In this document: positions 3,890-56,990 of the stretch, piece after piece
How the letters are laid out: each line of letters starts with the position of its first letter
How positions within the stretch are numbered: the first letter of the stretch is position 1
Assembly (NCBI GenBank): GCA_002245135.1
Contig: NGBS01000002.1
Coordinates: 124,001 to 188,000, forward strand
Direction of reading: 5' to 3'
Length of the DNA stretch: 64,000 nt
DNA from: Proteromonas lacertae
Taxonomy: Eukaryota
Notes under the pieces: generated by a model
The model's input: the letters and a program-made list of their open reading frames with translations, nothing else
What the model was told of the DNA's origin: nothing
The model's database searches: none
Position numbers and translations under genes: made by a program

Positions 3890-5017
3890 ATGAGCACTTC
3901 AGTCACTAAGATATCAAACAACAGGGGTAACTCACCCATTAAAAAGCCTTACACTGTTTACATACAACATCAGATGATCGGTAAGGGTGGATTTGGAGAA
4001 GTTTATGATGTAACAGAGAAAGAAAGTGGTGAACACTTCGCTTTGAAATGCTGTAGCCATATATTTGATCATCCACACACAACTCACGAGATCTTAAGAG
4101 AGTTGCTATTTGGAAGGTTGTTAAACAACCCATATGTGATGTCAATTAAAGAGATATTGGTACCAGCATCTTTATCCCAATTCAACACAATTTGGTTCAT
4201 CACCGACAAAATGAAGTTCGATATGCGAAGGATGTTTATTAATAACACATCCTACACATTATCAAACGTGAAATATATTATGTTTCAATTATTTCAAGGT
4301 GTAGATTACCTTCATCGTGCAGGAATCATCCATAGGGATTTAAAACCAGAGAATATTTTATTCAGTGATGATAACAATTTTTCTCTAAAGATAGGTGATT
4401 TTGGTTTAGCTTGTATCCCAAGATCTAATAAGAAATTAACAACCTACACAGTTACAAGATGGTACAGAGCTCCAGAGCTACTACTAGAGTGTAACTATGA
4501 TAATTCAATTGATATGTGGTCTTTAGGTTGTATATTAGCTGAATTATTGTTGAATGGACATGTTTTATTCAAAGGCAAGAATCAATATCAGCAATTAGAG
4601 ATGATAATATCACTACTAGGAACACCCATAGAAGGAGAAGATGATGAAGATGAAGGAGGATCGTGGATAACTAATTCATGTGCAAAGAGATCGTTAATAA
4701 AGAAATTTGGAAATAGAAAAGGTAATTGGAATGATGTATTTAAAGGATGCAATGAAGAAGCAGTTGATTTGCTCCTTCATTTATTAAGATGGAATCCAAA
4801 CGAGAGATATACTGCTGAAGAAGCTTTAAAACATCCATTCTTCAATGATATTATGAGTACCTATGGTGAATTAATTCCAGAAAGCGTATTATATCCTAAG
4901 GAAGTGAAAAAGATTGATTTTGGTTATGATGAAAGCGCTTTATTTGATTACCAATTACAATCCAAGATTGTTGATGAAATAAAGTATTATCATCCCTATT
5001 TAGATGCTTCTACTTAG
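3890..5017 (+). CDS. MAP kinase-like CMGC Ser/Thr kinase, intronless, TTY activation motif
   Basis: 375-aa ORF with GKGGFG, ALK, HRDLKPEN, DFG, LTTYTVTRWYRAPELLL, DMWSLGCI. Confidence 0.92.
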   Translation: MSTSVTKISNNRGNSPIKKPYTVYIQHQMIGKGGFGEVYDVTEKESGEHFALKCCSHIFDHPHTTHEILRELLFGRLLNNPYVMSIKEILVPASLSQFNTIWFITDKMKFDMRRMFINNTSYTLSNVKYIMFQLFQGVDYLHRAGIIHRDLKPENILFSDDNNFSLKIGDFGLACIPRSNKKLTTYTVTRWYRAPELLLECNYDNSIDMWSLGCILAELLLNGHVLFKGKNQYQQLEMIISLLGTPIEGEDDEDEGGSWITNSCAKRSLIKKFGNRKGNWNDVFKGCNEEAVDLLLHLLRWNPNERYTAEEALKHPFFNDIMSTYGELIPESVLYPKEVKKIDFGYDESALFDYQLQSKIVDEIKYYHPYLDAST

Positions 5018-5301: not shown

Positions 5302-8300
5302 ATGGATAGAATAGCATATGTTATAATATTATTAATTATATTTCCATATATATTAGCTCAACCAGTTTTGCATGTTGGATATATTTCGGTAGATGAAGGT
5401 TCTGGTCCATCATCTGATTCTGTCTTTGATGATTTTAAGTCTCAAATAGATACAATATATCCAGGAAAAGTTAATTTTACTCGAGAAGAAATAATAGACA
5501 CCGGTGATAACTATGACACATTTTTGAAAAGATTCTCAGATAAGAATATATCTAACATATTCTCAGCAGTTTCTTTTAAGAATATGACAAAATTAGATGA
5601 AAGTTTGCACAAAAATGATTTGTTATTATGGACGTTAATTCCAAAACAACCAGAAGTATGTTATACCAACATTTATTCTTATATATCATTATTAAAATAT
5701 TATGAAAGATGTATGTATTATATTTTATTTATGTTTATTAATAGTAATTACCTATTACAGTGAAGAGAATCCAATCGCTATTATATATGAAGAGAATAAT
5801 TGGTTTAGTAGTATAGTAAAAGTGATTAAAAAATACGTTGATATATTAGGTGTAGATATACAGACTCCACATCCGTATATCTCAGGTAAAATGATTTCTT
5901 TTTCTTTTGAATATAATACTACATCAGCTTCAAATCTTGCTACTTGGGTTGATTTATTAGGAAATAATTTTGTAATATTATTAGCTGTAGGAAATGCATA
6001 ATTTACAAGCTATATTGACAGAATTAGACAGCGCAAGTTCAATTAGTAGCGATGAAGTAGTGTTATTAGAAAATGAAGATGTAAATTATTATGATTTGGC
6101 TGTTGTTCCAAGTCTACCAATTACTAATTTTGATTTGTATATTGTTAGCGTATACAATCAAACACAAACTGCTGCAGATATTTATGACTTAAGCAAAGTT
6201 ACAAATAAAGCAAATATAGTAAAAGTTATCAAATTGTATATATATATATATCACTTTTTATATCTTTATATTCTTTAATAGATGTACATTGTTCAAAGTT
6301 TTGTATTTTTCATTCAATAGAAGTCAATCTTCAACAGTAAAAAATGTATTATATGCAGTAAATAATCGAAGAGTACCAATTAATGGTAGAAACATACTGA
6401 TATCCTATTCACATATTATTCCTGCTCCATTATTTATATCAAAATATGATAAAGCCATTCCTTCAGATTCAAATGTTGTTAGAGTATTAGAAATTGATGA
6501 TTATTTTCTATATTCTGACATTATGGGCAGACCACAATTAACATGTTATTATACAACAGCATTTGAAGTGCCAAGACCAATGGAGATTGTTGCATTTATA
6601 CATTACTTAAGTAATAATGAACAAAAGAGATTTTAAACAATACAAAGATAATGTTGTTAATGAAATGAAGAATGAAAGATTGATCATTAGAAGCAGAGTT
6701 ATTGGCTTTGAAATCAGTAGAACAACAACCAAAACTACCTAATAATCTATCGATTAACACCCTTAATAATTGATGGTTCTAGAGGTATACAAACAGTTAT
6801 GGCATATATACAAGCATATACTCGAGCAGGATTACTTCATTATATATTTACAACATATGATAATGAAGATAGAGAGAATTTGTTAAGTTATATAAGGAAT
6901 AGTGGAATTATGGATATCGAAATAGTGTCAATGAAACATTTAACAGGTTTAGAATGTGTTGAGAATTCTATTTTCTCAGGAATATCAGCTCCAGCTAAAT
7001 TTGATATTTCTTATAGTTGGTATTTAAGAGATTCTGATTTACCAATTACAATTATTGGTAGCAATCATAAATATGGTAAAATGACTTCTAATTATTTCTA
7101 TAATCAGTTTTACAATTATGGATATGATATGGATAAGATATCTATATATCAAATGAAAGATAATTCATTATCTGAAGGTTTTAATGCTGTTAGTAAGATT
7201 CGTTCATTTTTATTTGATCGTATAAATACTATATTTTTAATATATTTTATAATTAGCATCTGTAAATACATCCACAAGTGAAGGTCCATATGGATATGCA
7301 ATTATTTGTTTAGAAGAAGGGTATTTAGATCCTTTAATAAAAGCTTACAGAACTTTGAAGTTAAATAAAAAATTCTATCAATTAATAATATTGGAATATG
7401 ATGAATTTTATCCATATGATAATGACGATGGTGATTATATATATTTTAGTGTTAAGGACCAACATACTGTTATTACTCCATTGGTGATGGGTATTCAAAT
7501 GTATGGAAGACATCTTGTAACACAGTTATCTACTGCAACAGTAGTTGGTTATTATGGTGTAATGTTTTTAGTACAATCTATCAGATCTGCAATGTCTACA
7601 TCATTTGGTGATATCAGGAAAATGTTTTTGAATGTTCATATTCCTGCGTCTGGTGGTGCAATTTCATTATCAAGAAGTGGTTATACATATATGAAATTGA
7701 ATGTTGTAAAAGTATTTCTATATTATTAGTATTTATTGTTATTATTTAATAGAGAATTGGAGAAAAGTTATATGAATATCCACATACAGCTCATGGTTCA
7801 TTTCAAGTATATATATTCAAAGATGAAGATTCTGCATACTGTGATCTTAGTAATTATTGTATATCATATATATAACATATTATTATTATTATTATATAGA
7901 TATAAAAGGTAATGAATTATTTAATGATATAAAGAAATATACTCTAGTTGGTTTATATCCAACAGATCTGTATGACAAGATATATATGAGAGATATTACT
8001 GAACTAACAATTGTTGCTTGTGATATGATCAATGCATATGGTGGTGCACTAAATGGATTAATTATACCATCTTTTGTGAGATATAAAAAGAATATAATGG
8101 AAGTTGATGAGATAATAAAAGAATATTTAGTAGATATATCGACGATTGGTTTTATTGGATTATTAACAAGAGAAGAAAGAGAATATCTTAATCCATCTTT
8201 AATTAGATATGATAAAGTATTACTTTTACCATTCCCATTTGAAGGTAATTCATGTGAAGATAATACTTTAGTTATATCATTTTTTCTATTTATAATATCT

Positions 8301-11300
8301 ATTGTTTTCTTAATTTGATGTTTACTATGCCAGAGTTGCTGATAATAGCCTTTATATTGCATTAGATTTTATGTTTTTAGAGTCAACCAATTGTGCTGTT
8401 TATTATGCTAATAATTCGTATATAGATATAAATTGTATTGTTAATAATCAATAGAATTGCTGTAACTTTAATTGATTATATTGAAGCTCATTTGCAGAAA
8501 CGTAATTATGGAAATGAATGTACTTACATTCCATATTCTAGTGAAACATCCATTGATAATTTGACAGAAACATGTGAAGGTTATAATGATACAGGTGGAG
8601 GTTTTATATTTACTATATTAAATGATGATTTATATGATATGATTGATAGATTACCAATAGAATGTAAAAACCCAAAGATAAAGTTTTATCATTATTATTT
8701 CTCACCTAGAGATATACCAATAGGCAGATATAAGAATGTAACTAATTTAGATGGCCATATTGTTGTAGGATCTTATTTCCATTATGTAGAATCAAAGAAA
8801 GCAAAGATAGTAGAAGCGAATATTGTGCAAACTATTGGCTTACCTGAAATACTAATGCAGGAAGATTTCTTATCCATTTATGAGATTATTTCTATCTATG
8901 GTAAAGCTATGACAGGAGAAAGGATCACTTTCAGCATTATCAGTATTAAATTACTTCAAAAATCTAAGAGTTGATACATCAGAAGCTGATGATATAGTTG
9001 TTTCAAATTCTAGATATTTTTCTAAAGGTTTTTACTTAGGACAAATTGTATGTAATGGTAATGAATGTGATGTTAAAGAGTATAGAACTTTACCAACTCC
9101 AGTATTAAGTAATGCATTTAACTCTGATGTATTTATTGTTAATTATATATATATATATATATATGAATAGATGAAAGAAGGTGAGGATTTAGTATGTAAT
9201 TTCTATGCATCTAGCAATGATATAAAAGGAATGTCAGTTCCATTGCATTTTGGTGTAATTTTTGATGATCCAAAGAATGAATATAACCAGAGAATAATGT
9301 TGGAATTTACATGGTTAGAATCATATTTTAGAGATGCTGGATTATTTGATGGAAGATTGATTGTATAATTCTTAATATTATCTATTTATATAAATAGATA
9401 ACTCATACATTCAAATGTCCAACTACTAGTGAATTACTGGATGAAATGGTTGAAAGCATAAGAAAATATGAAATAAAGGTTTTCATTGGTGGTTGTAATA
9501 CAGACACTATTGACACGTTTGCTAAAAATGACACTTTGAAAAATACAATATTGTTTTATACTGACTTAAACACTGGTAGTATATGTAAATCAAACGTTAT
9601 ATTTGTGTGTCCAACTCCATATCAATTCATTTCAAATACGATGAATTATTTGTTAATTAGACAAGGTAATAATATCGCATTATTCTATGATTCTAGTTCT
9701 AGAATCAAAGTTTATGCGGATATAGTTTTAAATTCGATAGAATCACTGAATTTGAACTTAGTATATAATGGTGATATTAATGATAAGGATTATGTCAAAG
9801 TGGTAGAAAAAGGCATTCAACTGATCAATACATTAGAAATGAATACTCTTTATGTTATTAATTTATTAGAAAACAGGAGCAGCTGATTATTTCTATCAAT
9901 ATTATCACGATTTTTTTAAAGGTGAAATACCAATTCCTGTATATTCATTAATGTCATATTTTGCCAAAATTGATCCTTCAATTACTGCAAATCATTATGT
10001 TATATCTAATAAACTATTCCCAACCAATGATAATGGTTTAATTGAAAAATTACAACATTTCTTTGGTGATGAATATATATTTAATGGATTTGAAATTAAT
10101 TATTTAATGCCGTTTTACTTATTAGCTGAAGCTATTAAAGATACGTTGAAAATGACAGCTGAAAGTATTTTGCATGATGTATATTATGGTGAATATGATA
10201 CTCCATTTAATAAGCTATTTGTTACACCAGATAATACTATTTCTCATTTCATTGCTGTTATTAAAAAAGATGGAGATAATAATCTAAATTCAACTGGAAA
10301 TGTAATTATGAAGTTTTATGAAGGAAATGTGTATAATGAAAAGTATTATGATTCTATTTTGTATGGTTGTAACTGGAGATCATCAAGGACTGAATCATAT
10401 TTAAAATCAACTGTTGGAATTGGTATATTATTATCTTTAAGTGGTCAATTTATGCCACAAGACAAGGAGCTATTAACTTCTTATTTATTAGCTGTTTCAC
10501 TAATTAACTGTGAATATAATGGTGTGAGAGGATTAACAGTTAATCCAATAATAAAAGATATAAAATCAAATAAAAATGAAATTGAACCATTGTTGAATGA
10601 ATTTAAGAATGCTGGTGTATATATCATATTTGGATTAACCAGTTCTGAACTTAGAGTAGTTGCTAAACCATTTATTGAAGCTAATAATATGCTATTATTC
10701 TATGCGCATGATTATGAAGGTTTAGAATGTAGTAAAAATATTGTATATATTGGTTTACCTGCTACAGCTAATGAATATTATCCATATTATATCTTAACAG
10801 ATCAAATTAAGAACAAAATTAATGTAGTTATTGTATATACAGAAACAGATACTATCAATCGAATGAGAAGAGTAGTAACAGCAGCATTAAACAAATATGA
10901 TATAGTAGTAACAAAAAATATACCAACAAAATATGGTTTAAAGAATTACGCATATATAATCAATCAATTATTACAATATGCTGTTCCTTCTTGTATAGTA
11001 GTGACATTATTAGAAGGACCAAACATAATGAATTTTTATAACTTGACTTATGGAATTCCAGTTCATTTATATGCAATTGGATTAGACAAAAGTCTTATAA
11101 CAATTGAGAATTACAAGTTATTTAGAGGACATCATATTATTACAGCTGAATCAAGTATAGATAATCAAATGAGTAAATTAATTGAGATGTATAGACGAGC
11201 TTTATTTCCATATGCTGATACAGTGTCTCAGAATATGTTGTATTCTATTACATCTGTTTTAGTATGGAGAGCTGCTTTAGAAGCAAAGAAATCAGTTACT

Positions 11301-14300
11301 GTTGATAATATACTAACAGCACTGTATAATCTAGATGTAGAAACCCCAATGGGTTTGTTGAATATAAATTCAAATCATCATTTGAATATTCCAAGATTGA
11401 TATTAACTGTAAAAGTAGTATATGGTGAATATCAGATTGTAGAAGAATATAGAAGTAAAAATGTAAGACCAAATCCATGGAAATCACCATTAATAGATGA
11501 AAAGATATATTATTGTAAATGGGAAGGAGTTAATGATGAAGATAAAGTATTAGAACTACAGTATAATGCTAATGTGTTATTATCTAAATCTGAGCCAATG
11601 TTCTTAGATATTTTAAGTGGAGCTGTAACTGCATATGCTCATATAAGTGAAACAGGTGGATTGTTAGGACATGAACTCAATTTTGTATTATTCTTATATG
11701 ATGATGATGACAGTGAATTGTATGATAAATTATATGACTTTTTGAGTAAACCAATGAGATTATTCTTATTTGGTTGTACAACTCCAAATTGTGCCAATTT
11801 AATAAAGTCAATATTACCAGTAACAAAATCATTCATATTTTACCCATTACCATCAAAAGGTGAAGAATGTAGTTTATTCCAGTTAACCATTGGTCCATTA
11901 CCCAATCAGATTGTAGAATCTACAATCAACTTCATTACAAGCCAAGAATCTAAACATAATGTGATTATATTATTCTCACCAGATGATAAATGGGATGTAT
12001 ATAGAGATGTATTCATCAATAGTATACCATCACAATTAGACCTTAAGAATGTATATGAATTTGGAGATTATGATTTTTTTTCTTATTCTGATTATGAGAA
12101 AGTATGGAAAGATTTAGGTGATGGAGGTGTAATAATTAGTTTTTTATCTGAAAGACCAATGTTATCATTCGTAGAAGTAATGAGTCAAAATGCACATAAC
12201 TTTAAAATATTTGATATTATAACAATAAGAGTTTCACCAACTACCATATTTTCACAGTTTTACTCTGAATTATTACCTTTGTATTATCCAACTGGACTTG
12301 ATTTACCTGTTAAAGATGATCCATTAATTCAAATATTAACTACTGATGTATATAAATATAGTGGTGTAGATTATACGACTGATGTTACTGTTACATCAGC
12401 AATATGTGTAGAAGCATTAGGTAAAATTGTAAGATCTGGAGGTACAAATGATGTGCAGGAATTAAAGAAGATTATATTTAACACTCCATTAACAGATGAT
12501 GGAAAGAATTACATTGATTATAGTTTCTATTCAGTCAGAAATATTTATATGTATAATTATACTGGTTCTTCAGCTTCAGTAGCAAAAGTACTGATAAAAG
12601 CAATACCACAACCATTCAATTGGTTAGCTGAAGGAAATAAAGGTAAAATGTGTGATGTTAGAAACGTTGATATGTTTGGAAATGGCAATCCAATTTATAA
12701 GAAAGATGTAATGAAGATATTATTTGTAGTATCTGAAACTGGCGCTGATAGATTTAATTACAGAGGAATGTCTGCATCCTTCCAAGAAGCAATTAACCAA
12801 ATCAACAAAATGGATGGTGTAAGAGATAAAACATTAGAATATGAAACAATAGATGATGAATCAGAATCAACTAAATGTGCTGATATAATAAAGTCTAAAG
12901 TAATGACAGGAAAATTTGAAGCTGTATTTACAACAGGTGATGCTCAATGTATGGATTTAATATTAGAAACAGTGAATCAATATAATATTAAAGTATTCCA
13001 AATAGGAATGTTTGGAGGAGAATCTTGTGAGAATAATATTATACATATTGGTATTGATCCATCCCAAATGGAGTTGTTTATTGAAAGATTATTGAATAAA
13101 GGTATTAGATCTTATGCTATAGTTGGTGTATCAACAACTACAAGTATTAGATTCACTAATTATGCAGAAAGATTTATTAATTATTTGCATGGTGATATGA
13201 TGTATACAATATCATTAGATATTGGTGTTACTAATTTAGATAGCACTGCTTCCTCTATAGTTTCAAGATTACCAAATGGCGGTGCAATTTTATACTTTGG
13301 TACTGCTTCATTACACATTCTACTATCTCGATCATTGAAAAAAGTTGGTAAGAATTTGGATAAGATTTCATTTGTTTCATTTTCAACAGCAGAAGAAGTT
13401 TCTTCTCAAGGAGATATATTAAAATTCTTTTCAGTAATGCATTATTTCAATTCTATTCAAACTGAAGCAAATGATGCATTTATTGATCATTTGAAATCAC
13501 CATTACCATCAGATACAGTTCCAAATCATCTACATGAAGCTATTTATACAACTTTGTTTATGTGGAGAGAAGCAGCAAATAGTCAACCAGATGTTCCAAT
13601 GTCTGAATTGAATTATTATAATCAAGTATTTGGTACAACTGTTGGTACAATGGAAATAGCTACTAATAATATAGTTAAAAGGAAGGTGTATATTGCTGTT
13701 TATGATGGTAATAATAAAGAAGGTAAATTTAGTATATATTCTGTGGATGATATAATAAGACCAAAAGTATGGCAGAAGTTTATTAATTCTGGCATATATG
13801 AATGTGATTTATCCAATCCAGAAATTGGTTCACAATATAAACATTCTAGTAATAAAATAGCAGTAATGGCATCTTTGACTGGTGTTGATGAATTAAAAGG
13901 AAGAGAATTAGTATCAGCAACATTATTAGCAGTAGATGAGTTGAACAATGATGGTGGATTGATAGGTGAAATGATAGAAGTGGAAGTGGTGGATATAAAA
14001 TCAGATCTTAAAGCGTTAGAAAGAATAAGTAAAGAAACAGCAGCATTGAAAGCAGTAACAGCAGCATTTGGTGCAAATTGGGATGATGAATATAAAATAA
14101 TTGAGCCATACTTTTCACAAGTGGATAAACTGTATTTCTTCCCAGGTGTATCTACAGGTGAGTTATGCCATCAATATGGTATAGTTACTGGTTCAACAAT
14201 GAATCAAATTATAGCTGAAACTAAAGCTGTTTTGACTCAGAGAGATGTTGATTATATTGTGATGTATAGTGATTATTCATTCTGCATAAATGCATTGCAT

Positions 14301-17052
14301 TTATTAGAATCATTGTTTGACACTTTATTGATCAGTTATAAATCAATTTTACTAACAGATTCAAATATAAGCGAAGTAACTGAACAAGTGTATAAAGATT
14401 TTCCAGATGGTGCTTATATATTAGATATAAGTTCAGGTTATACATCCATAGAATTTGCTGAAGCTTGTATTGAAAATCAATTAATATATCCAAAGTTCAT
14501 GTTTTACCACTTTTTAATGGATGAATTTACAATAAATACACATTTAAAAGCATTTGAAAGACATATATTATTCTCCTCTTGGTCGATCTGCTCTAGGTAC
14601 AAATCCATTAAGACAATACGAAAAGAGTAGAGAATTCTATCAAAAATTCATAAAGAAATATGGTGATACAATAATAGTAACAAGTGCAGCTGAAGCAATT
14701 TATGTAGCAATAAAACTATGGGCTTTTGGTGTAAGAGAAGCATTTTCCTACGATGGTAAAGTAGTAAGAGATGGAATGGCTGGAGTAAGACAACAAATAG
14801 CTGGTGGTTATGTAAGATTAGAAACAAATAACATGTTATCCAGGAAATTATATGCTTTTACAGTAATAAATGGTAAAATTGAAGTTACAAATAGTCCAAG
14901 TGGTTTATTATATCCTGATGCATTTAGTAGATGGGTATATGAGAATGAAGGTAAAGATTGTGATTGGTTAAATAAGAATGGTATGTTTTATAGAGATAAA
15001 ATGATTAAATTTGGTGTAATTCTAGAAGATGATTTTGAAGCTAGGAATGATGTATATAATGCTTGGTTTGCCATTGATTTAGCAGTTCGAACATTGAATG
15101 ATGCAGGTGGAATAAATGGTTACTTTATTGTGGTTGAATCTAGGATTGTGAAGAATAATGAAATTTTTAATACATCTTTGGAATTAATGAGTAGTAAGAA
15201 TTACACTGTTATTTTTGGTTGTTTATCCGAAGAATGTCGTGATATAGTTTCACCATTAGCTGTTACATATAAGAAATTATTCTTTTTCCTAGGTGATAAT
15301 ACTGGTGAAAGTTTTTCAATTTATACAATTCAAATAGGTTCAACCATACATCAAAAAATGTTAATATCATTGAAATATACACAAAAATTCTATAAGAATT
15401 ATTACATACTAAGTGATAATACTTTAAGTGATTTATATTATAAAATACCGCAACAGATGGTTAGTGAATTGCCAAATTCAGTTTTATTAGGTACAAAAAT
15501 ACTTCATAGTGATTTAGATGCAACTTCATTCTTTTATAACATATATAAAATGGATCGTGACATAGATCATTTGATTATATTTACAGCAATTTCAACTAAG
15601 TATATTGGTAAATGTTTAGATTTATATAATCAATACAATTTATTATCAAGAAGAGTGTATTTTATATTTGTTAAATACAATCATTATACATTTGAAATAT
15701 TTGATTTATCAAAATTATCTGGTAGTTTTATACCATTGCCATACTATCAGAATATAGATACAACTACAAACACTGCTTTTGTAAAGAATGCTGAAGATAT
15801 ATACTCTGATAATTTCTATTTATCATCAATCTATGAAACTACTTATGATACAATAACCATCTACAAAGAAGCAGTTTTAATAGCAAAGGCATATGCTGCT
15901 GGGGAAGAATGGCCTTCTACTGATTATATTAGATTATCATTGATTAATTTAAGATATCAATCACCATCAGGTTATATAACAATATTGAATAACAATTATG
16001 CAAAGAGACCAATGTATTTAATGTTAATACTTGGTCAATCTTCATTTTTACAAATACATCCTGAATTAGGTTATTCTGAAGAATGTGAACCAAATCCTTA
16101 TATTAATGGGACTCCAGCAGGATATGAAAATACAAAGTATATCGAAATCATTGAAAGAGATTTAGTAATCAATTACATATGTTTTACACTTGGAGGTATT
16201 AATATCATCATTGTCTGTATTTGCTTCTATTTCACTGTAAAATACAGAAAAGTCAGAATTATTCATTGTTTATCAGTCAGTTATCATTATTGGTTCTTAT
16301 TAGGATGTTTGGCTTGTATAATGTCAATAATGACAATGGCAATTACACCATCACCAACATCTATTATCTGTAGGACAAGAGTGGTATTTATGCCATTCGC
16401 TTTAACTCTTTTAACATCAGCAATGTGTTATAAGACTATTGTATATAGATCAGTGAAGAGGAAGAGAGTTCATAAGATTAGAATTCAAGCTTGGAAGTTA
16501 GTAAGATGGTTTATAATTACATATATTATACCTTTTATATTGACAATATTATATTTATCAGTTAGTGGTAGTGAATATAATGAAGAGATTGATATAAATA
16601 AGTCATCTTATTTAGTTACTAAAGTATATAAGACATGTACTAGTAATGATACATGGATAGCCGTATTTGCATTTTACTTTGGTATTTATTTATTCTTTAC
16701 AACATTTATGGGAATTTTGACTAGAAAAGTTGCTAATGAATTTTATGATTCTTATATTTTATGTGTTTCCTCTGCTTTTACATTCATTTTAGGATTTGTA
16801 TTATTTGCATTGGATTATGTTATTGGTGAAGATATTAATTCGAAATTAGTTTTAAGAGGCGTTGGATATCAGTTAATTGTTTTGGCAGTTATATTATTAC
16901 AGTATGTACCGAAGTTTATTGTGAAAGTAACGAATGAAGAAGCTTTAGATGAAACTGATTCTATTATTCGAGATGTAGATAGAAGTTCAGTAACTTCTAT
17001 GTCAAGAACAACAATGAGTATGACAAAGACATCAACTAGAACTCATCAATAG
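5302..17052 (+). CDS. Giant class C GPCR-like receptor: signal peptide + ~9 tandem type-1 periplasmic-binding (Venus flytrap, UrtA/AmiC-like) domains + 7TM; frameshifted in this assembly
   Basis: Signal peptide MDRIAYVIILLIIFPYILAQ. About 9 short introns at 5711-9397. Repeats of ~370-390 aa with G(I/V)LxSLxG...LAVxxINxxGG...FG...L(F)Y...EGxECSxN, each ending P(W/F)...CxW/L. Terminal 7 hydrophobic helices (~16160-16925) with class C-like C..R, KT, TRKVxxEFxDS and YVPKF. Confidence 0.85.
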
Positions 17053-17183: not shown

Positions 17184-18356
17184 ATGAAACAAATCTTTAT
17201 TTTATATTTTAGTTTTACTATTGTATTAGGCTGTTATAAATTTTGTAATGGTAATGGTAAATGTGGAGCTAAGGACAAGTGTGACTGTTATATTGGTTGG
17301 GGAGGAGCAGATTGTTCTTTAAGTATTTAATATAATTTATTAATTTTCATACTAGGAGCTTGTCCTTATGGTGAAGCTTTAATTGATATACCTTTGGGAG
17401 ATTTGAATCATGATGGAGATGTGGATGATAAAGCTGTTAAAACTGATTTTAGGCCAAAATATGGAATGACTGAGAATTTAAAAGGCTATGTAACAAAATC
17501 CAGAGCACATCGTTATGCTGAGTGCTCTAACACTGGAACATGTAATAGAAAAACTGGTGAATGTGAATGCTTCAATGGCTATGAAGGTAGTGCTTGTCAA
17601 CGTCGTCAATGCCCATCAAAAGTTGCTGGTGTGAGTTGTAGTGGACATGGCATTTGTATGAGTAGTACAGCATATGCTAAAGAGCAAGGAAGTACTTATT
17701 ATGGTTGGGAATTGGATAAATTCTTAATGTGTAAATGTGATGATGGCTATGAAGGAGTTGATTGTAGTTTGAGACAATGTCCTTATGGATTTGATCCTGT
17801 GTTATATAGTGGTACAACAATGAAGTATGTGATTGAAGGTGAAAATATAAAGAAGTTTACAAATTCAATTAGTTTTTATTTTCAAATAGATTATGATGGT
17901 AGAACATACAATACTCCAGTAGTATTTCCTTTAGAACCAGCTATTATGTGTCCTGGATGGAATAAAGATATATCCGCTGTTGCAATGTATCAAGAAGAAA
18001 TTAAAATAGCATTACAATCAACATTTCCATTAAGCCAATCAAGAGTATTAATATCATGTTCAACTGATACTACACCTACATTAAAGCAAATAGAGATTAT
18101 TGTTGATTCTATAGATCCAAGATTATTCATTAAATCTACTCTCCAAGCTGTTCAGGATAATGGTCATAATCTATTTGATAAAAAAATCAATGGACAAATA
18201 TTTAACAAAGGAAGTGAAATTACTAACTTAAAGAATGTCAATATCCCTACACTTTGTTCAAGTCGTGGTTTATGTGATCAATCTACAGGATTATGTAATT
18301 GCTTTCAAGGATATTACGGTTATACATGTGAGGTGAAATTAGCAGTTCAGAGTTAA
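17184..18356 (+). CDS. Secreted Cys-rich EGF-repeat protein, stramenopile mastigoneme (Sig1/Ocm1)-like
   Basis: ATG 17184 with signal peptide (MKQIFILYFSFTIVLG), intron 17323-17355, EGF motifs CNGNGKC, DCSLRACP, DIPLGDLNHDG, AHRYAECSNTGTCNRKTGECECFNGYEGSAC, CPYGFDP, terminal CSSRGLCDQSTGLCNCFQGY. Confidence 0.8.
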
Positions 18357-32229: not shown

Positions 32230-35200
32230 ATGTCTCAGCAAGGAGAGCAGAGAAGTATAAATGTAGCAGTGAGAATGAGGTGTTTAAATCAGAAGGAGGT
32301 ATATATTTTATTGAATTACGAGAAATAGATACAAAAAGGTGATACCTATTCATGGCTATGTGATCTTGAAACAAATACTGTTACATCTGTTTGTACTAAG
32401 GATTGCAATAACTTAACATCATATCCTGTTGGTATATTATATTACTGTTTATAGAAATATATAGATCATGTATTTGATGAAAAGCATACGTCAGAAGATG
32501 TATATAAAGCTATAGGTGAGCCAATTATTAACGATGTACTTCAAGGTATAAATGGCACAATATTTGCCTATGGTCAAACATCATCTGGCAAAACATACAC
32601 AATTCGTGGAACATTGGAACATCCAGGAATTCTATATTTATCATCTAAAGACATTTTTGACAAAATCAGGAAAGCATCAGATAGAGACTTTATCATAAAA
32701 GTGTCTTATATTGAAATATACAATGAAACATTAAAAGATTTATTAGATCCAGATAGACCTCCACAGATCAGAGAACATATCGAAAAAGGTGTATATTTAG
32801 ACTGTACAGATTATACAATTACAGACATGAAGCAAATTGATAATTTAATCCAACTGGGTGAAAGTAATCGACATATTGGAGCAACTAAAATGAATGAAAG
32901 AAGTAGTAGATCTCATACCATCTTTCGTATTGAAATAGAAAGTAAATCTCAGGATTTAGATGATGATAGAACACTAGGTGCAATTTTGAATATAGTTGAT
33001 TTAGCAGGTAGTGAAAATGCCAAAAATACTGAGGCTAAAGGTGATAGACTAGTTGAAGCAGGTTGTATTAATAAATCACTATCCACATTAAGTTTAGTTA
33101 TCAGTCAATTAGCTTCAAATAGTGTTGGTCATATTAACTTTAGAGATAGTAAATTGACTAGATTATTACAACCATCGTTAAATGGTAATACTCGTACTTC
33201 TATTATTGCATGTATTAGTCCAGCAAGTAGTAATCGAATGGAGAGTGAAGGAACATTGAAATTTGCATGTAGAGCAAAGAATATTGTGACTGTAGTTAAA
33301 CAGAATAGTGGTTATAGTGATAATATTAAAGATATTGCTTTATTAAAGAGAGAAAAGTATGATTTGAAGTTACAGATAGCTGAATATGTTAGTTCAATAA
33401 ATGATTTGAATGATAAGATAACTAAATATGAGGAAATTGATAGATTATATAATAATATACTGGAATATATATCTAAGAATTATGAGCCAAGAATATTACA
33501 ATATATTGAGAATATAAGTGATGATATTGTTGTGGAAGAAAATGAAAACGCAAATATTATTGTATAAATATTAATATATTGATTATTATAATGCTATTGT
33601 AATAGAAATTAAAACAAATTGATGGAATAATCAATTACTTATTGAAAGTTCAAAAAGACAAAGAAAATGAGTTTAATAAAACATCTGACAACTTAATATC
33701 AATGTTACAGAAAAATACAGATGAATTGACACAATTTAAACAACAATATACAAGTGTATTATTATTATTATATTATTTTATTTTTATTAATAAATAGTTG
33801 GATTTAAAATACAAAGGATTAACTCAACAATATAAACAATCACAAGAAAAAATAAATGAATTACAAAACCATTTAAATGAGAATGAAAAACAAATCAAAA
33901 ATCAATCTGACACAATAACTCAGCAGAAGAATATGATAGTAGAATATAACAGCAACATTGACAAACTGAATAATACAATTACAGATACTAATAATAAGTT
34001 AAACCAATTAACAGAGAATCATTTACAATTAGAATCAGATAATGATAATAAAAAGAAGATTATCGTTGAATTAAATCAAGAAATTGGTAATATAAAGAAT
34101 GAGAATGTAAAGAAAGAGAATCAAATAACTGAACTTCAAACAGAAATAGAGACTATTCAACAAACTAAAGATACATTAGACAAAGAAAAGTTGAATATTT
34201 TGAATGAAATAACTGCTGTAAAAGTAGAAATCACTAAGAAAGATAACATTATTAGTAATTTACAGAATGAATTGAGTGAAATGAGTAGTAAAAATGAACA
34301 ATTATCAAATCAATTGGAAGAATTGAAGATAAAGAATAAGAATCTTGAAACAGAGTTTAGTGATAAGAAGAATGAGTATGAAAATCTTATTATCACATTA
34401 AAGAATGATTTACATCAAATACAGAATGAAAAAACACAAATAAACAATCAGAATGAACAATATAAAGAAGAAATAGATAAAATGAATATTAAAATTAATC
34501 AATTAGATGATAAAATAGCTGGATTAAATGAAGATTGTAATAACTACCAACAAGAGATAACTGAATTAAAAGAATTGAATGAAAAGAACCAAAATGAATA
34601 CATAAAGAAAGAAAATGACTTAAATGAAGAGAAACAATACTTATTAGTGAATTTAGAGCAAATAATTGAAGAGAAATCAGTTCTTAAACAAAAATATACA
34701 AACAACCAAACACAAAGTGAAAGTAGAATTAACAAATTAGACAATGAAAAGAATAATTTATTAGATACAATCCAAACAATGAAAAGTGATTATGAATATG
34801 AAAGAAATCAAAGACAAGCTGAGTTTGAGAATATAAAATCACAATTTGAATCAGAAATTAGCTCTAAGAATAAAACTATTAATGAATTAGAAAGTCATAA
34901 TAACCAAATACAAGAGAAATTAATAGAAACTGAAAATAATATGAATAGATTGAGAGATGAATCAGAAGATACAATAAATCAATTAAAACAGAATATAAAA
35001 GAATTAGATGAGGCAATTGAGTTAGGTAAAGAAGAAAATGAAATGAGAATATATGAATTAACCAATGAGAAAATAGAAAAGATGAATGAAATATCTTTAT
35101 TACAATCATCGCTGGAGAATTTGAAACAGATTCAAAACCAACTTAATGAAGATAATAACCATAATAAGAATATGATAAATCAGTTAAACGTAGAAATGAA

Positions 35201-38200
35201 TAAGAATAAAGAAGAATATAATGCCAATATAAACACTATCCAAAGTCAATATAATGAATTGAATAATCAATTGCAAACACTTATAGTAGAAAAATCACAA
35301 TTGAATGATTCATTAGTAGAATTACAATCTCAATATAGTAGTTTAAATGATGATTATAATAGAATGAAAGAAGATAATGATGAAATGAATGAGCAAATAC
35401 AAAATTATAACAATGAATTAGATCAATTAACAATTATATATGATAATAAAGATGTAAAGCATAATGAAATGATAGAAGAGAAGAATGGTGAGATTGAAAA
35501 GTATCAGTCGAATATTGAGTTATTAACTACACAAAAAGAAGAATTAGAGAATAGAATTAATGAAATGATTAACCAGAATAATGAACTAAGTAATAAGTGC
35601 ATTGAATATGATTTAAAGATACAACAACTTAATGAGAGTCATAGTAAAGAAATGAATGAATTGAATGAGAAGAATAACACTATAACACAAGAAAGAGATT
35701 CTATTCATAGTAATTATGAAGATTTAAAGGTTAAATATAATGAATTAGAGAATAAATTCAACGAGTTACAAAGCAATTCTGAAGTATTAAATGAGAATAT
35801 AAAGTCAAAAAATGAACAAATTAAACAATTAAATAATACAGTTGAAGAATTGAGACTTGAAATTTCAAATCTCAACCAAACAATTGAAGTAAAAACAAAT
35901 GAATATAATAAATCCATACAACAATTAGAACAGGAAATGAATGAGTTAAAATCACAATATGAATCAGACTTAAACTCAAAATTACAATTAATATCAGAGT
36001 TAGAAGAAAAGAAAATGAATTTAGATAATCAACTGCATGAAAATGTGACAGAATTGAATGAATTAAAAGATGAATATAATGCCAAAGTGAATATATGGAA
36101 TGAATCTGAGATAAATTACAATAAACTATTATTTGATAATGGTGAAACAATCTCAAACATGAGAAATGAAATAGCTGAAAAAGAGAATAATATTCAAATA
36201 ATTAGTGGTGAAAAAGATGAATTGAATAATCAATTACAACAAGCAAAAGATGAAATTACCAAATTGCAGTCTAATATTAGTGAATTATTAAGTAATAAGA
36301 GTTATATAGAGACTTATACATCTAAAACAATTGGATCATTACAAAACCAAGTGAATGAATTGAATAATGAAATATCATCAAACTTATCTATTATTAATGA
36401 TTTACAAACACACTCAAATGAATTAAATGAAAAAATAAAACAAGAAAATAGTGAGAAAATGAATATTAGCAATGAATATGAGAGTTTTAAACAACAAAGT
36501 GAAGAATTGATATCTCATTTAAAGAATGAACAGAATGAATTAAATAATCAATTACAGTCTAAAGAGACAGAAATACAACAATTAAGAAATGAAATTGAGA
36601 AAGTAAAGGAAGCTAATGAGTTAAATGACAATAATAGAAATAAAGAATATAAAGATTATCAAATGGAAATGGAAAGTATGATATCCAATCTAAACATAGA
36701 AACAGAACAATTAAAGAAAGAAATTGAAAGTAAAGAATCTTCAATTAATGAGTTAAAGTTGACTATTAATGAATTAGAATCAACACTAAACAAAGAAAGA
36801 GAAGAAAATGATAAGAAAATAAATAATATGACTGAAGAAAATAACAAAAATATTCAATTATTAGAAAATACTAATAAAGAATATACGATATATAAGAATG
36901 AAGTAGAAATGAAAATATCCGAATTATCCAATCAAATCGAAGAATTGCAGCTAAATATAAAACATTTAGATTGTGAAAAACAATGTAATATAAACGAAAA
37001 TGAAATAGCTAAAAAAGAAATTGTTAGAATTCAAAACGAGAATGAGATGAAAATAAAGGAATTAATGGATGAAATAAGTGAAAAAGAAGAAGAAACTACC
37101 TTACTAACATCATCAATAAATGAGTTAAAAGATGTACAAAATAAATATAATGAATTAACTGAAGAAAACAATAGAAATATTGAGAAAATATATGAATTAG
37201 AAAATAGAATTTCAACTAATGAAAGTGAATATAACAAAGAGAAAATAGAGTTTGAAATACAAATAAAAGAACTGAACTTTGATTTACTGAAGGAAATAGA
37301 AAGTAAATCAGATTTAAATATGAAACTAAGTGAATTAGAAAACAATTCAAAACAAATAATAGAAGAAAAAGTGTCATTACAAAATGAAATACTCAAACTT
37401 CAACAACAGAATCAAAGTGAAATATCCAATCAACAAAGTGAATATAATAAAACAATTGAAGATTTAAAGAATGAATTAAATGAAAAAGAACAATCTGTTA
37501 ATGATACAAATATCAAATTATTAGAAAAAGAAAGACAAATAAATGAATATGAAATGAATATTGAAACTATGAGTGAAGAGTTAGAAACATTAAAGAAAGA
37601 AATAAAAAGAAAACAGAATCAATTAAATAATGTTGAATCAGATTTAACAGAAAGATATAATATATTAAAACAGAATAATGAGAAATATGAATTACAAATT
37701 AAAGAATATGAAAATGAGAAAATGTTATTAGAATCTAATATCAATGACTTAACTCAACAAGTTAAGAATATGACTAAACTTAATGATAAGATTGTTTTAT
37801 TATCAAATGAGAATAATGAATTGAAACAAAAGGTTGAAATAGACGAAAGTGAGATAGAATCATTAAAGAATAAATACAAAAATTATGAGATAATTAATAA
37901 TGAAAATAATAAGAAAAATGAAAAGATCGAATTATTATCAAAGGAATTAACTAAAGTACAATTTGAATATAACAATATATTAAGCCAATATAACAATCAA
38001 AATGAATTATTACAAAAGATGAGAAATGATAAAGACTCATTAAAGAAGAATAGCAATGAATTAATTCAACAATATCAATTGTTAGTAGATAGTAATAATC
38101 TATTAACAGATAAAGTGAATAAATACGAAACAACTATTCAAGAACAGAATGAAATGATTAAAACAATAAAATCAAAAATAGAATTATTAGAGAATAATAA

Positions 38201-39212
38201 TGACATTCTAACTAAAGATAATGAAAAAATGAAAAATGATGTAATGAATGGAAATATAGTAATTGAAGGACAAAACAAACAAATAACTGAATTAGAGAAT
38301 GAGATAAATGAAAAGAAAGAATATTTGAAGAGTAAATGTGAAGAAGTTGATAAAATAACACAACTTAAAAACTCATTACAAAAAGATCTAAACAAATTAA
38401 AAGATAGATTAAATGAATATGATATATCAATAGAAAAGAAAGATAAAAACATCAAAGAATTAAATATAAAAGTAACTTCAACAATGAGTGAATTAGCAAA
38501 GTGTAAGATTGAATTAAATGATAAAATAAGTGAAGTATCAAATTATAAACAAAACATAAATGATTATTTATTAACTATTAAAAAGAGAGAAACAGAATTA
38601 AAACAATACCAATCATTATATAATGAAGATAAAGTATTAAAACAGCAAATACAACAATTGAAGAGTGAAGTAGAAGAATTAAGACATGATAATGAGATAT
38701 TAAGTCAAAATCAAAAGATTGATCAAGTCAGTAAGAATTTATATGACAGTGTTAAAGCTAATTTGGATATATATGAAAAGAGATGTAATGAATATGAAGT
38801 AGAGATTAATAAATTAAAACAAGAAAAGGAAAGATTAGAAGATTTGAAAATAAAAGGATTTAAAGCCTTAGATGAGTTAAAGAAAGAAGGATTAAAGAAT
38901 AAACAATTAGTACAGCAATTAACTGAAGAAAAACAACAGTATGAAACTAAATGTAAGAAGTATAAAGAGAATCAAGTCGTATTTAATGCAATGAAAAAAC
39001 AATATGAAAAGATAAAGAGTGAATATGATTTGTATAAAGACGAGAATGTTAAACATAAGAGAAAGATTTGCGAATTAGAAAAATCACTTGAAAATAAGAC
39101 ATTCTTAGATCCTGTAGTGAATAGATTAGAAGAAGAAATAAATACATTAAACAAACAAGTAAAAAGATATAAAATAATGAATATTGGAGATAAAGAGAAT
39201 ATGGTGAATTAA
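32230..39212 (+). CDS. Kinesin-7 (CENP-E-like) motor with ~1800-aa coiled-coil tail
   Basis: INVAVRMR, IFAYGQTSSGKT, NERSSRSH, VDLAGSE, FRDSKLTRLLQPSL; four short introns; a final 5.4-kb exon of heptad repeats. Confidence 0.9.
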
Positions 39213-56330: not shown

Positions 56331-56426
56331 TTTAACATATTTATTTCATTTAGTTTTGAATGATGATTAATTTAAAATCGGTTTGATCGATAATCGAGTA
56401 ATAATCGATAAATACTCGATTTTAAA

Positions 56427-56990
56427 ATGACTGAAATGATGGAAGCTGTTAATCTACAAAAGTATAAACGTTTTCAGACTGTGTCTATATTTATTCTTTT
56501 TGGATTGGGTTGCATCTGGCATGATTTATTAGACAGATTGGGCAATTATTATTTGTTTGCATTATTTTGCCCAATAAATGAGAGTGTATGGGAGCATGGG
56601 AAGATTGTATTTTATCCGTTAATGATTTGGTCAGTAGTGGAGTATCTATATTTAAAACCTTCAAATTTAAGTTATTTTCTATTAGTAAAATGCTATTCAA
56701 TGTTTTATGCTGTTTTATTAGAATATGCATATTATTATACATATACAGGAATGTTAGGTCATGGTATTTTAATAGTGGATATACTAGATGTATTAGTTTG
56801 TATGATTTATGCATGCCATTTGAGTTGTGAATGTTATACACATAAATTATCTTCATTTCAATCCAAAATGTGTTTCATTTGTGTTATACTATTACATGTT
56901 ATGTATTGTTCATTCACATTTTATCAACCTCATATTCCTTTTTTCTATTGTACGATAACAAAGCGATATGGATCAGATTTAAAATACTAA
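56427..56990 (+). CDS. DUF6512-like bacterial-type membrane protein, intronless
   Basis: GxIWH...LFCPINESVWEHGKIVFYP...YYTYTGMLG...VDI...FTFYQPHIPFF, matching the Firmicutes pattern as I recall it (PVNESxWEHxKL). Confidence 0.75.
   Translation: MTEMMEAVNLQKYKRFQTVSIFILFGLGCIWHDLLDRLGNYYLFALFCPINESVWEHGKIVFYPLMIWSVVEYLYLKPSNLSYFLLVKCYSMFYAVLLEYAYYYTYTGMLGHGILIVDILDVLVCMIYACHLSCECYTHKLSSFQSKMCFICVILLHVMYCSFTFYQPHIPFFYCTITKRYGSDLKY

What the first reader, a model, noticed from the sequence alone, without database searches (positions are those of the whole stretch)
5302..17052. Giant class C GPCR with about nine tandem Venus-flytrap domains
Seen: after removing introns and bridging frameshifts, one ~3800-aa protein with a signal peptide, nine repeats (approximately 5360-6560, 6580-7850, 7930-9200, 9240-10375, 10410-11520, 11560-12655, 12710-13810, 13850-14970, 15000-16110) and a terminal 7TM with class C hallmarks (TRKVxxEFxDS, YVPKF), with no Cys-rich domain. 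Known: animal mGluR/GABA-B/T1R receptors carry one flytrap per chain. Inference: a beads-on-a-string multi-ligand nutrient sensor, or a long stalk reaching through a surface coat, in a probable gut protist. I do not recognise this architecture as described.
Basis: partly seen in the sequence, partly recalled or inferred. Interest (0 to 1): 0.92.

Follow-up and report, generated by a model that had tools for sequence, protein, structure and literature searches.

The report
Nine-flytrap receptor built from urea binders
This gene of a likely gut protist, broken in this sequence by six or seven one-base shifts, encodes a glutamate-receptor-like seven-helix membrane protein topped by nine clam-shell domains most like bacterial urea-binding proteins instead of the usual one, and distant relatives with the same nine-domain plan keep the urea-binding residues, so the family likely began as a multi-site urea sensor.

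Summary
Observation confirmed. The model (5302-17052) gives about 3,795 aa: signal peptide, nine flytrap repeats and a class C 7TM. It needs nine introns and 6-7 frameshifts, all +1. All nine repeats match a profile built from relatives only. The repeats resemble bacterial UrtA urea-binding proteins more than animal flytraps (Z 41 vs 31).

This is a family: 33 of 150 hits have five or more repeats. P0002, P0182 and P0183 are unbroken proteins with nine repeats plus 7TM. Shorter arrays occur in Capsaspora and a chytrid. Those three keep all eight UrtA urea-pocket residues in 5-8 repeats, never in the one next to the membrane. The window's repeats keep 0-3; only repeat 5 has a pocket conserved among its relatives. 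AlphaFold predicts packed repeats (pTM 0.77), not loose beads.

Best reading: a rigid flytrap array, ancestrally a multi-site urea sensor, here retuned to another small ligand. This copy is either mis-assembled (about 60%) or a young pseudogene. Ligand and G-protein coupling are untested. Eight literature searches and three scan look-ups found no description.

The parts
5302..17052 (+). Whole gene model, about 3,795 aa, 9 introns, 6-7 +1 frameshifts
   Evidence: an independent codon-usage gene model gives the same ends
5302..5358 (+). Signal-peptide-like hydrophobic N-terminus
   Evidence: only hydrophobic segment before the 7TM
5338..6582 (+). Flytrap repeat 1 (most diverged; introns 5711-5744 and 6236-6281; break near 5993)
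   Evidence: E 2.6e-9; 40.5 bits vs at most 1.1 in shuffles
6583..7919 (+). Repeat 2 (breaks near 6619, 6689, 6750; introns 7220-7256, 7712-7752, 7859-7899)
   Evidence: E 4.9e-17
7938..9227 (+). Repeat 3 (introns 8274-8325, 8418-8454, 9138-9170; break near 8915)
   Evidence: E 5.4e-36
8274..8325 (+). Candidate AT-AC (U12-like) intron, 52 nt
   Evidence: keeps the frame where no GT-AG intron was found; splicing not shown
9234..10403 (+). Repeat 4 (intron 9363-9397; break near 9869)
   Evidence: E 2.4e-29
10404..11588 (+). Repeat 5: most UrtA-like; the only repeat with a pocket conserved among relatives (S-Y-D-E)
   Evidence: TIGR03407 E 1e-28
11589..12683 (+). Repeat 6
12696..13844 (+). Repeat 7
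   Evidence: TIGR03407 E 1e-24; UrtA structures E 3e-14
13845..14988 (+). Repeat 8 (break near 14583)
   Evidence: five of five relatives aligned have one codon at the break
14989..16134 (+). Repeat 9, next to the membrane
   Evidence: Z 41.0 to UrtA 8hic, rmsd 3.3 A over 368 residues
16165..16920 (+). Class C seven-helix domain
   Evidence: 7tm_3 E 2.7e-20; GABA-B best in PDB; seven helices in the model; motifs
16921..17052 (+). 43-aa cytoplasmic tail, 16 Ser/Thr

Best explanation
The gene encodes a class C-type seven-helix protein carrying nine tandem UrtA-like flytrap domains, which are predicted to pack into one rigid array and which likely sense a small nitrogen-containing molecule and would pass the signal through the last repeat to the helices. 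Shown: the architecture, the UrtA fold, unbroken nine-repeat relatives, and intact urea-pocket residues in most of their repeats but never in the one next to the membrane. Predicted: tight packing of repeat on repeat and of repeat 9 on the 7TM. Inferred: the ancestor was a multi-site urea receptor whose binding repeats close on urea, while the pocket-less last repeat couples that movement to the 7TM, much as the non-binding GABA-B2 flytrap does (recalled). In this AT-rich lineage the family expanded and lost the urea pocket. Repeat 5, which keeps a variant pocket, is the likely main binding site for another small amine, amide or amino acid, and the other repeats likely serve as frame and relay. 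The +1 breaks are more likely sequence errors (about 60%) than decay.
For: Architecture. Family: of the 150 listed hits, 33 have 5 or more repeats and 21 have 2 or more repeats plus a whole or partial 7TM. Of 22 long hits that I chose for Pfam, 16 have 2 or more Peripla_BP_5 stretches plus a 7tm_3 hit. Nine repeats plus 7TM in one unbroken protein: P0002, P0182 (repeat 8 has an insert), P0183; P0030 has a signal peptide and nine repeats, ending inside the ninth. UrtA type: (Z 41 for UrtA, about 31 for the GABA-B flytrap). The eight pocket residues (PMC10392092) are all kept in 5 of 9, 8 of 9 and 7 of 9 repeats of P0002, P0182 and P0183; their last repeats keep 1-2. In P0071 and P0044 too the last repeat keeps 1. 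Repeat 5 across AT-rich relatives: S 10/20, Y 17/20, D 14/20, E 14/20; no other repeat shows such a set. Each window repeat best matches the same position in six AT-rich relatives in 32 of 39 cases, while the window's own repeats score at most 35 bits to each other. Packing: pTM 0.77, pLDDT 88.1 for repeats 5-7; pTM 0.83, pLDDT 92.3 for end of repeat 8 + repeat 9 + 7TM; linkers 15-16 aa in all 14 junctions, of 24, that the pattern caught. 7TM motifs kept. Breaks are all +1 with no nonsense codon, though 6-7% of substitutions here would make one.
Against: No ligand, transcript or G-protein data. The window's repeats keep only 0-3 of 8 pocket residues, and repeat 5 lacks the W, Y190 and N246 equivalents, so it may bind nothing. 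The conserved repeat-5 residues sit on one lobe only and could be structural. pTM is model confidence; I had no coordinates or PAE, only 3 of 9 repeats were folded together, and the alignment may mis-register repeats. How closure of repeat 5 would reach the membrane four repeats away is not shown. The breaks cluster in this gene: 21 of 25 gene models in the window have none, which fits a young pseudogene. Window repeats do not match P0002, P0182 or P0183 by position (2/9, 1/9, 0/9), and the 7TM tree does not resolve one origin of the nine-repeat plan.
Confidence: 0.5

Rival explanations
1. In this lineage the array is a rigid stalk or contact sensor: the pockets are vestigial, and the far end touches host mucus, bacteria or other cells and signals mechanically through the 7TM.
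For: All nine repeats have lost the urea pocket. Pocket columns of repeats 6-9 are mostly no more conserved than average among relatives. Packing is predicted rigid. Repeat 1 is the most diverged and has 6 N-glycosylation motifs.
Against: Repeat 5 keeps S-Y-D-E at pocket positions, at the 80th-98th percentile of column conservation. Distant nine-repeat relatives have intact pockets, so nine repeats did not arise as a pocket-less spacer.
Confidence: 0.2
2. Each repeat has its own ligand and the receptor sums many nutrient signals.
For: Repeats are position-specific and very different from each other; all keep the flytrap fold where modelled.
Against: Position-specific pockets should be conserved among relatives, and only repeat 5's is. 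Caveat: those relatives are probably paralogues that may differ in ligand.
Confidence: 0.17
3. This copy is a recently inactivated pseudogene of a large receptor family; the architecture is real but works only in relatives.
For: 6-7 frameshifts in 11.7 kb against none in 21 of 25 window gene models. Many related receptors exist in the lineage, so loss of one may be tolerated.
Against: All breaks are +1 and there is no nonsense codon. A second gene in the first 15 kb (KATNIP-like) also shows an apparent shift, which fits a low-accuracy stretch of assembly. The modelled parts fold with high confidence.
Confidence: 0.3
4. The +1 breaks are real and are read through by programmed ribosomal frameshifting.
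For: All breaks go the same way; two lie just before a TAA.
Against: No shared motif at the sites; most are not at stops; five of five aligned relatives have a plain codon at the 14583 site; other window genes lack such shifts.
Confidence: 0.04

Closest known systems
GABA-B receptor (class C GPCR without Cys-rich domain)
   Same: Class C 7TM; flytrap joined to TM1 by a short linker; top Foldseek match over flytrap + 7TM (E 2e-25) and top sequence match for the 7TM; a non-binding flytrap has a precedent in GABA-B2 (recalled).
   Different: Nine flytraps per chain, not one; UrtA type, not ANF type; predicted flytrap-to-7TM orientation differs (rmsd about 25 A); short 43-aa tail.
UrtA, urea-binding protein of bacterial ABC transporters (TIGR03407; PDB 8hic, 7s6e, 7s6f, 8tg1); AmiC
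   Same: Fold (TM-score 0.85-0.88 on the target, rmsd 2.5-2.9 A), 19-24% identity, the two Cys motifs of the cyanobacterial type.
   Different: Repeated nine times and fused to a 7TM; far below the family cut-off (100 vs 493 bits); urea pocket lost in the window's repeats.
Protist and fungal class C GPCRs with recruited solute-binding domains (PMC3251606, PMC5168858, PMC3971589)
   Same: Bacterial-type binding domain fused to 7tm_3; long N-termini, up to 1,667 aa in PMC3251606.
   Different: The passages seen name BMP, OpuAC, SBP_bac_1, LysR and ANF domains, not tandem UrtA arrays; the N-terminus here is about 3,500 aa.
Capsaspora owczarzaki CAOG_05347 (P0059) and Phlyctochytrium bullatum HDU96_010091 (P0071)
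   Same: Several UrtA-like repeats plus a 7TM in one chain.
   Different: 2 repeats in P0071, 3-5 detected in P0059 depending on the profile; held in databases as hypothetical or under an automatic GPCR family 3 name.

Membership tests
Class C GPCR | 7tm_3 domain with seven helices | tested here: met
   73.6 bits vs cut-off 33.5; seven helices in the model
Class C GPCR | TM3 and ECL2 cysteines, TM3 Lys, TM6 acidic residue, PK motif at TM7 | tested here: met
   C, C, K, D, P, K in the window; among 43 rows C 43, C 42, K 39, E or D 43, P 25, K 35. Motif roles recalled.
Class C GPCR | Bilobed type I periplasmic-binding extracellular domain | tested here: met
Class C GPCR (animal type) | One ANF-type flytrap per chain | tested here: not met
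   nine repeats, closer to UrtA than to the GABA-B flytrap
mGluR/CaSR/T1R subgroup | Nine-cysteine domain between flytrap and 7TM | tested here: not met
   no NCD3G hit at E 0.1; repeat 9 runs straight into TM1
Class C GPCR | Obligate dimer | not testable with these tools
   needs biochemistry or cryo-EM
Class C GPCR | Couples to heterotrimeric G protein | not testable with these tools
   no whole genome is held for this window; no assay
UrtA urea-binding proteins | TIGR03407 score above the cut-off | tested here: not met
   best repeat 100.3 vs 492.75 bits
UrtA urea-binding proteins | Eight conserved pocket residues (W120, S122, Y141, Q144, E146, Y190, N246, S274) | tested here: not met
   0-3 of 8 in the window's repeats; 8 of 8 in 20 of 27 repeats of P0002, P0182 and P0183
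UrtA urea-binding proteins | UrtA fold | tested here: met

The most novel reading that the evidence does not exclude
An old, undescribed family of giant eukaryotic receptors stacks nine bacterial-type urea-binding domains into one rigid array on a class C 7TM. In its conserved members it is a GPCR for urea with up to eight sites and a dedicated pocket-less coupling repeat. In a gut-protist lineage it has expanded into dozens of diverged receptors, forming a main chemosensory repertoire that signals by passing domain closure along the array.
Probability: 0.4. Interest if true: 0.88.

Novelty: new variant of a known kind. Interest (0 to 1): 0.74.

Why it matters
Class C receptors are understood as one flytrap per chain working in dimers. 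A conserved nine-flytrap chain needs another way to couple binding to the helices, and is a direct cryo-EM and pharmacology target. The relatives with intact pockets predict a specific, cheap-to-test ligand, urea; I recall no GPCR for it. Published Blastocystis genomes are described as having lost many signalling genes (PMC12129017). A large diverged receptor family in an AT-rich, probably related gut lineage would be a candidate for how such protists sense the gut. Tandem urea-binding arrays on a 7TM are also natural biosensor scaffolds.

Tried and rejected
Whole genome: none held, so G-alpha/beta and paralogues could not be checked. Sequencing runs: none was listed; this is no evidence either way. 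A word-indexed search for longer relatives of the last ORF found none; the index-free search then found many. A metagenome scan with P0183 found no relative. A scan with repeat 8, meant to find an independent assembly across the 14583 break, gave one unrelated bacterial single-domain locus, L001. A homodimer prediction for repeat 9 gave no answer (score 0.00, alignment not used); it is not used as evidence. Atlas searches returned only single-flytrap class C clusters and bacterial binding proteins; a blank there shows nothing about novelty. Scan look-ups showed one unrelated viral flytrap note. Rejected: several independent genes (no internal hydrophobic segment, breaks fall inside repeats, unbroken relatives exist); recent tandem amplification (window repeats are barely alike); long introns that absorb the breaks near 5993 and 9869 (proposed by the gene model, but they would cut conserved strands); membership in UrtA. 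Of 30 cluster look-ups, only P0059, P0071 and P0184 named an organism. The organism of the window was not identified.
Full report
OBSERVATION. The window is AT-rich (22-31% GC) eukaryotic DNA with short introns. From ATG 5302 to the stop at 17050-17052, nine introns and seven breaks read as X give one 3,795-aa reading with no other stop. A codon-usage gene model found the same ends. Eight introns are GT-AG (33-46 nt) and one is a candidate AT-AC intron (8274-8325). All introns lie in the first 4.1 kb. All seven breaks are +1; the one near 6619 may be a 37-nt intron instead. The core needs no joining: ORF 9870-14630 has four Peripla_BP_5 stretches, and ORF 14548-17052 has Peripla_BP_5 and 7tm_3 above cut-off. 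A profile from relatives only finds nine domains. The two weakest score far above 200 shuffles each and above their reversed sequences. The only hydrophobic segments are the N-terminus and the 7TM.

THE REPEATS. They are UrtA-like. Repeats 5 and 7 hit urea-binding proteins first in the PDB. Repeats 5-9 match TIGR03407 at E 1e-28 to 4e-9, far below its cut-off. Models rank UrtA first: TM-score 0.85-0.88 on the target, and Z 41.0 with rmsd 3.3 A over 368 residues, against Z about 31 for the GABA-B flytrap. The 7TM matches GABA-B weakly by sequence (E 0.002) and strongly by fold (E 2e-25), though flytrap and 7TM are oriented differently (rmsd about 25 A). Class C motifs are kept. So this is a class C 7TM with a flytrap likely recruited separately from the animal one (inference).

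THE FAMILY. An index-free search gave 307 proteins at E 0.001 or better and listed 150. Of these 150, 33 have five or more repeats and 21 have two or more repeats plus a whole or partial 7TM. Pfam agrees for 16 of 22 long hits that I picked. P0002 (3,745 aa, first repeat cut short) has nine Peripla_BP_5 stretches and 7tm_3. Searching with it gave P0182 and P0183; both have a hydrophobic N-terminus, nine repeats and a 7TM. P0030 has a hydrophobic N-terminus and nine repeats and ends inside the ninth. Named members are Capsaspora CAOG_05347, the chytrid Phlyctochytrium HDU96_010091, and a Pfiesteria protein with repeat pairs but no 7tm_3. Most others are unnamed Logan records. Many of those start or stop at shared positions, as expected of ORFs cut at introns (inference). 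In the 7TM tree the window groups with P0001, P0005 and P0016 (100/99) inside a weakly supported group of 17 AT-rich rows (91/73); deeper branches are open. With repeats numbered from the 7TM end, window repeats best match the same position in six AT-rich relatives in 32 of 39 cases, but in only 3 of 27 for P0002, P0182 and P0183. A quick repeat tree (SH-aLRT only, many long branches) shows positional clades in the AT-rich group. It also pairs r4-r4 and r5-r5 of P0002/P0183 and r2-r2 of P0182/P0183 (96-98), but some starred pairs are off-position (P0002 r6 with P0183 r8). One old nine-repeat ancestor is plausible, not shown.

POCKETS. PMC10392092 (passages) names eight conserved UrtA residues around urea. 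All eight are kept in 5 of 9 repeats of P0002, 8 of 9 of P0182 and 7 of 9 of P0183. Their last repeats keep 1-2, as do the last repeats of P0071 and P0044. Window repeats keep 0-3 in two separate alignments. I compared 34 anchored AT-rich rows, the window's model among them, after dropping two unanchored ones. Only repeat 5 has a set of conserved pocket residues (S 10/20, Y 17/20, D 14/20 in place of Q, E 14/20); its second-lobe positions are not conserved.

SHAPE. Repeats 5-7 fold with pLDDT 88.1 and pTM 0.77. The end of repeat 8 with repeat 9 and the 7TM folds with 92.3 and 0.83. Three freely moving equal domains would give a pTM near 0.4 (my reasoning from how the score is built), so fixed packing is predicted. 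In the three conserved relatives, all 14 of 24 junctions caught by the pattern have 15-16-aa linkers. No coordinates or PAE were available.

THE BREAKS. For a sequence error: all are +1, there is no nonsense codon although 6-7% of substitutions would make one, five of five aligned relatives have one codon at the 14583 site, and a KATNIP-like gene nearby also shows an apparent shift. For decay: 21 of 25 gene models in the window have no shift; the other four are this gene, two antisense shadows and one spurious call. I put error at about 60%, young pseudogene 30%, recoding under 5%.

ORGANISM. The neighbouring PAK kinase has stramenopiles among its best named hits; named Blastocystis strains are only 45-48% identical, and an unnamed Logan cluster is 97% identical over half its length. 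PMC5608401 (passages) reports AT-AC introns in Blastocystis and, among stramenopiles, otherwise only in oomycetes. PMC12129017 (passages) reports low-GC Blastocystis with longer, variable introns. A Blastocystis-related gut stramenopile is therefore likely but not shown; the KATNIP-like gene, ciliary by my recall, would be odd for Blastocystis itself.

MECHANISM. See Best explanation. The weakest step is how a distal repeat moves the 7TM. It would need a rigid relay, a curl back towards the membrane, or a dimer partner; none is shown.

LITERATURE. Eight searches listed no paper on tandem-flytrap or UrtA-type GPCRs. PMC3251606 (passages and section 20; figure not seen) lists other binding domains and N-termini up to 1,667 aa, which may be the Capsaspora protein. 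PMC5168858 (passages) covers gut-fungal class C receptors. PMC3971589 (passages) refers to species-specific architectures in its supplementary figure S3, which I did not see and which could show the Capsaspora array. PMC12716839 has none of six terms searched in its main text. Subscription journals are largely not covered.

VERDICT. Real, and part of a family that appears undescribed: a new variant of class C GPCR. Interest 0.74, held down by the untested ligand and coupling and by the broken state of this copy.

Noticed in passing
window 2906-1 (-), near 2295: KATNIP-like gene (DUF4457) with an apparent -1 frameshift and no obvious GT-AG intron: a second broken gene in the first 15 kb.
   Followed up: partly
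window 8274-8325 (+): Candidate U12-like AT-AC intron of 52 nt with a branch-point-like stretch; keeps the frame of repeat 3.
   Followed up: partly
window 19844-18463 (-): PAK kinase; a 97%-identical Logan relative (P0211) appears to have an intron in the kinase domain that the window copy lacks, suggesting recent intron loss or gain.
   Followed up: partly
window 9398-17052 (+): The 3' 7.6 kb of the receptor has no intron, while many relatives' ORFs end at shared points in repeat 9 or the 7TM; could reflect 3'-biased intron loss.
   Followed up: no
P0063 and P0184: Pairs of one pocket-bearing and one degenerate UrtA repeat also occur without 7tm_3: before a membrane helix and a glutaminase domain (P0063), and with Cys-rich repeats in a Pfiesteria protein (P0184). 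The pair may be a reusable sensing module.
   Followed up: partly
window 3890-5017 (+) and 17184-18356 (+): Flanking genes: an intact protein kinase and a secreted teneurin-like EGF-repeat protein. No evidence of a functional link.
   Followed up: no
window 32230-39212 (+): Kinesin motor ORF followed by a 1,804-aa coiled-coil ORF, modelled as one gene.
   Followed up: no
window 56412-56990 (+): DUF6512 protein (E 1e-27); not examined.
   Followed up: no
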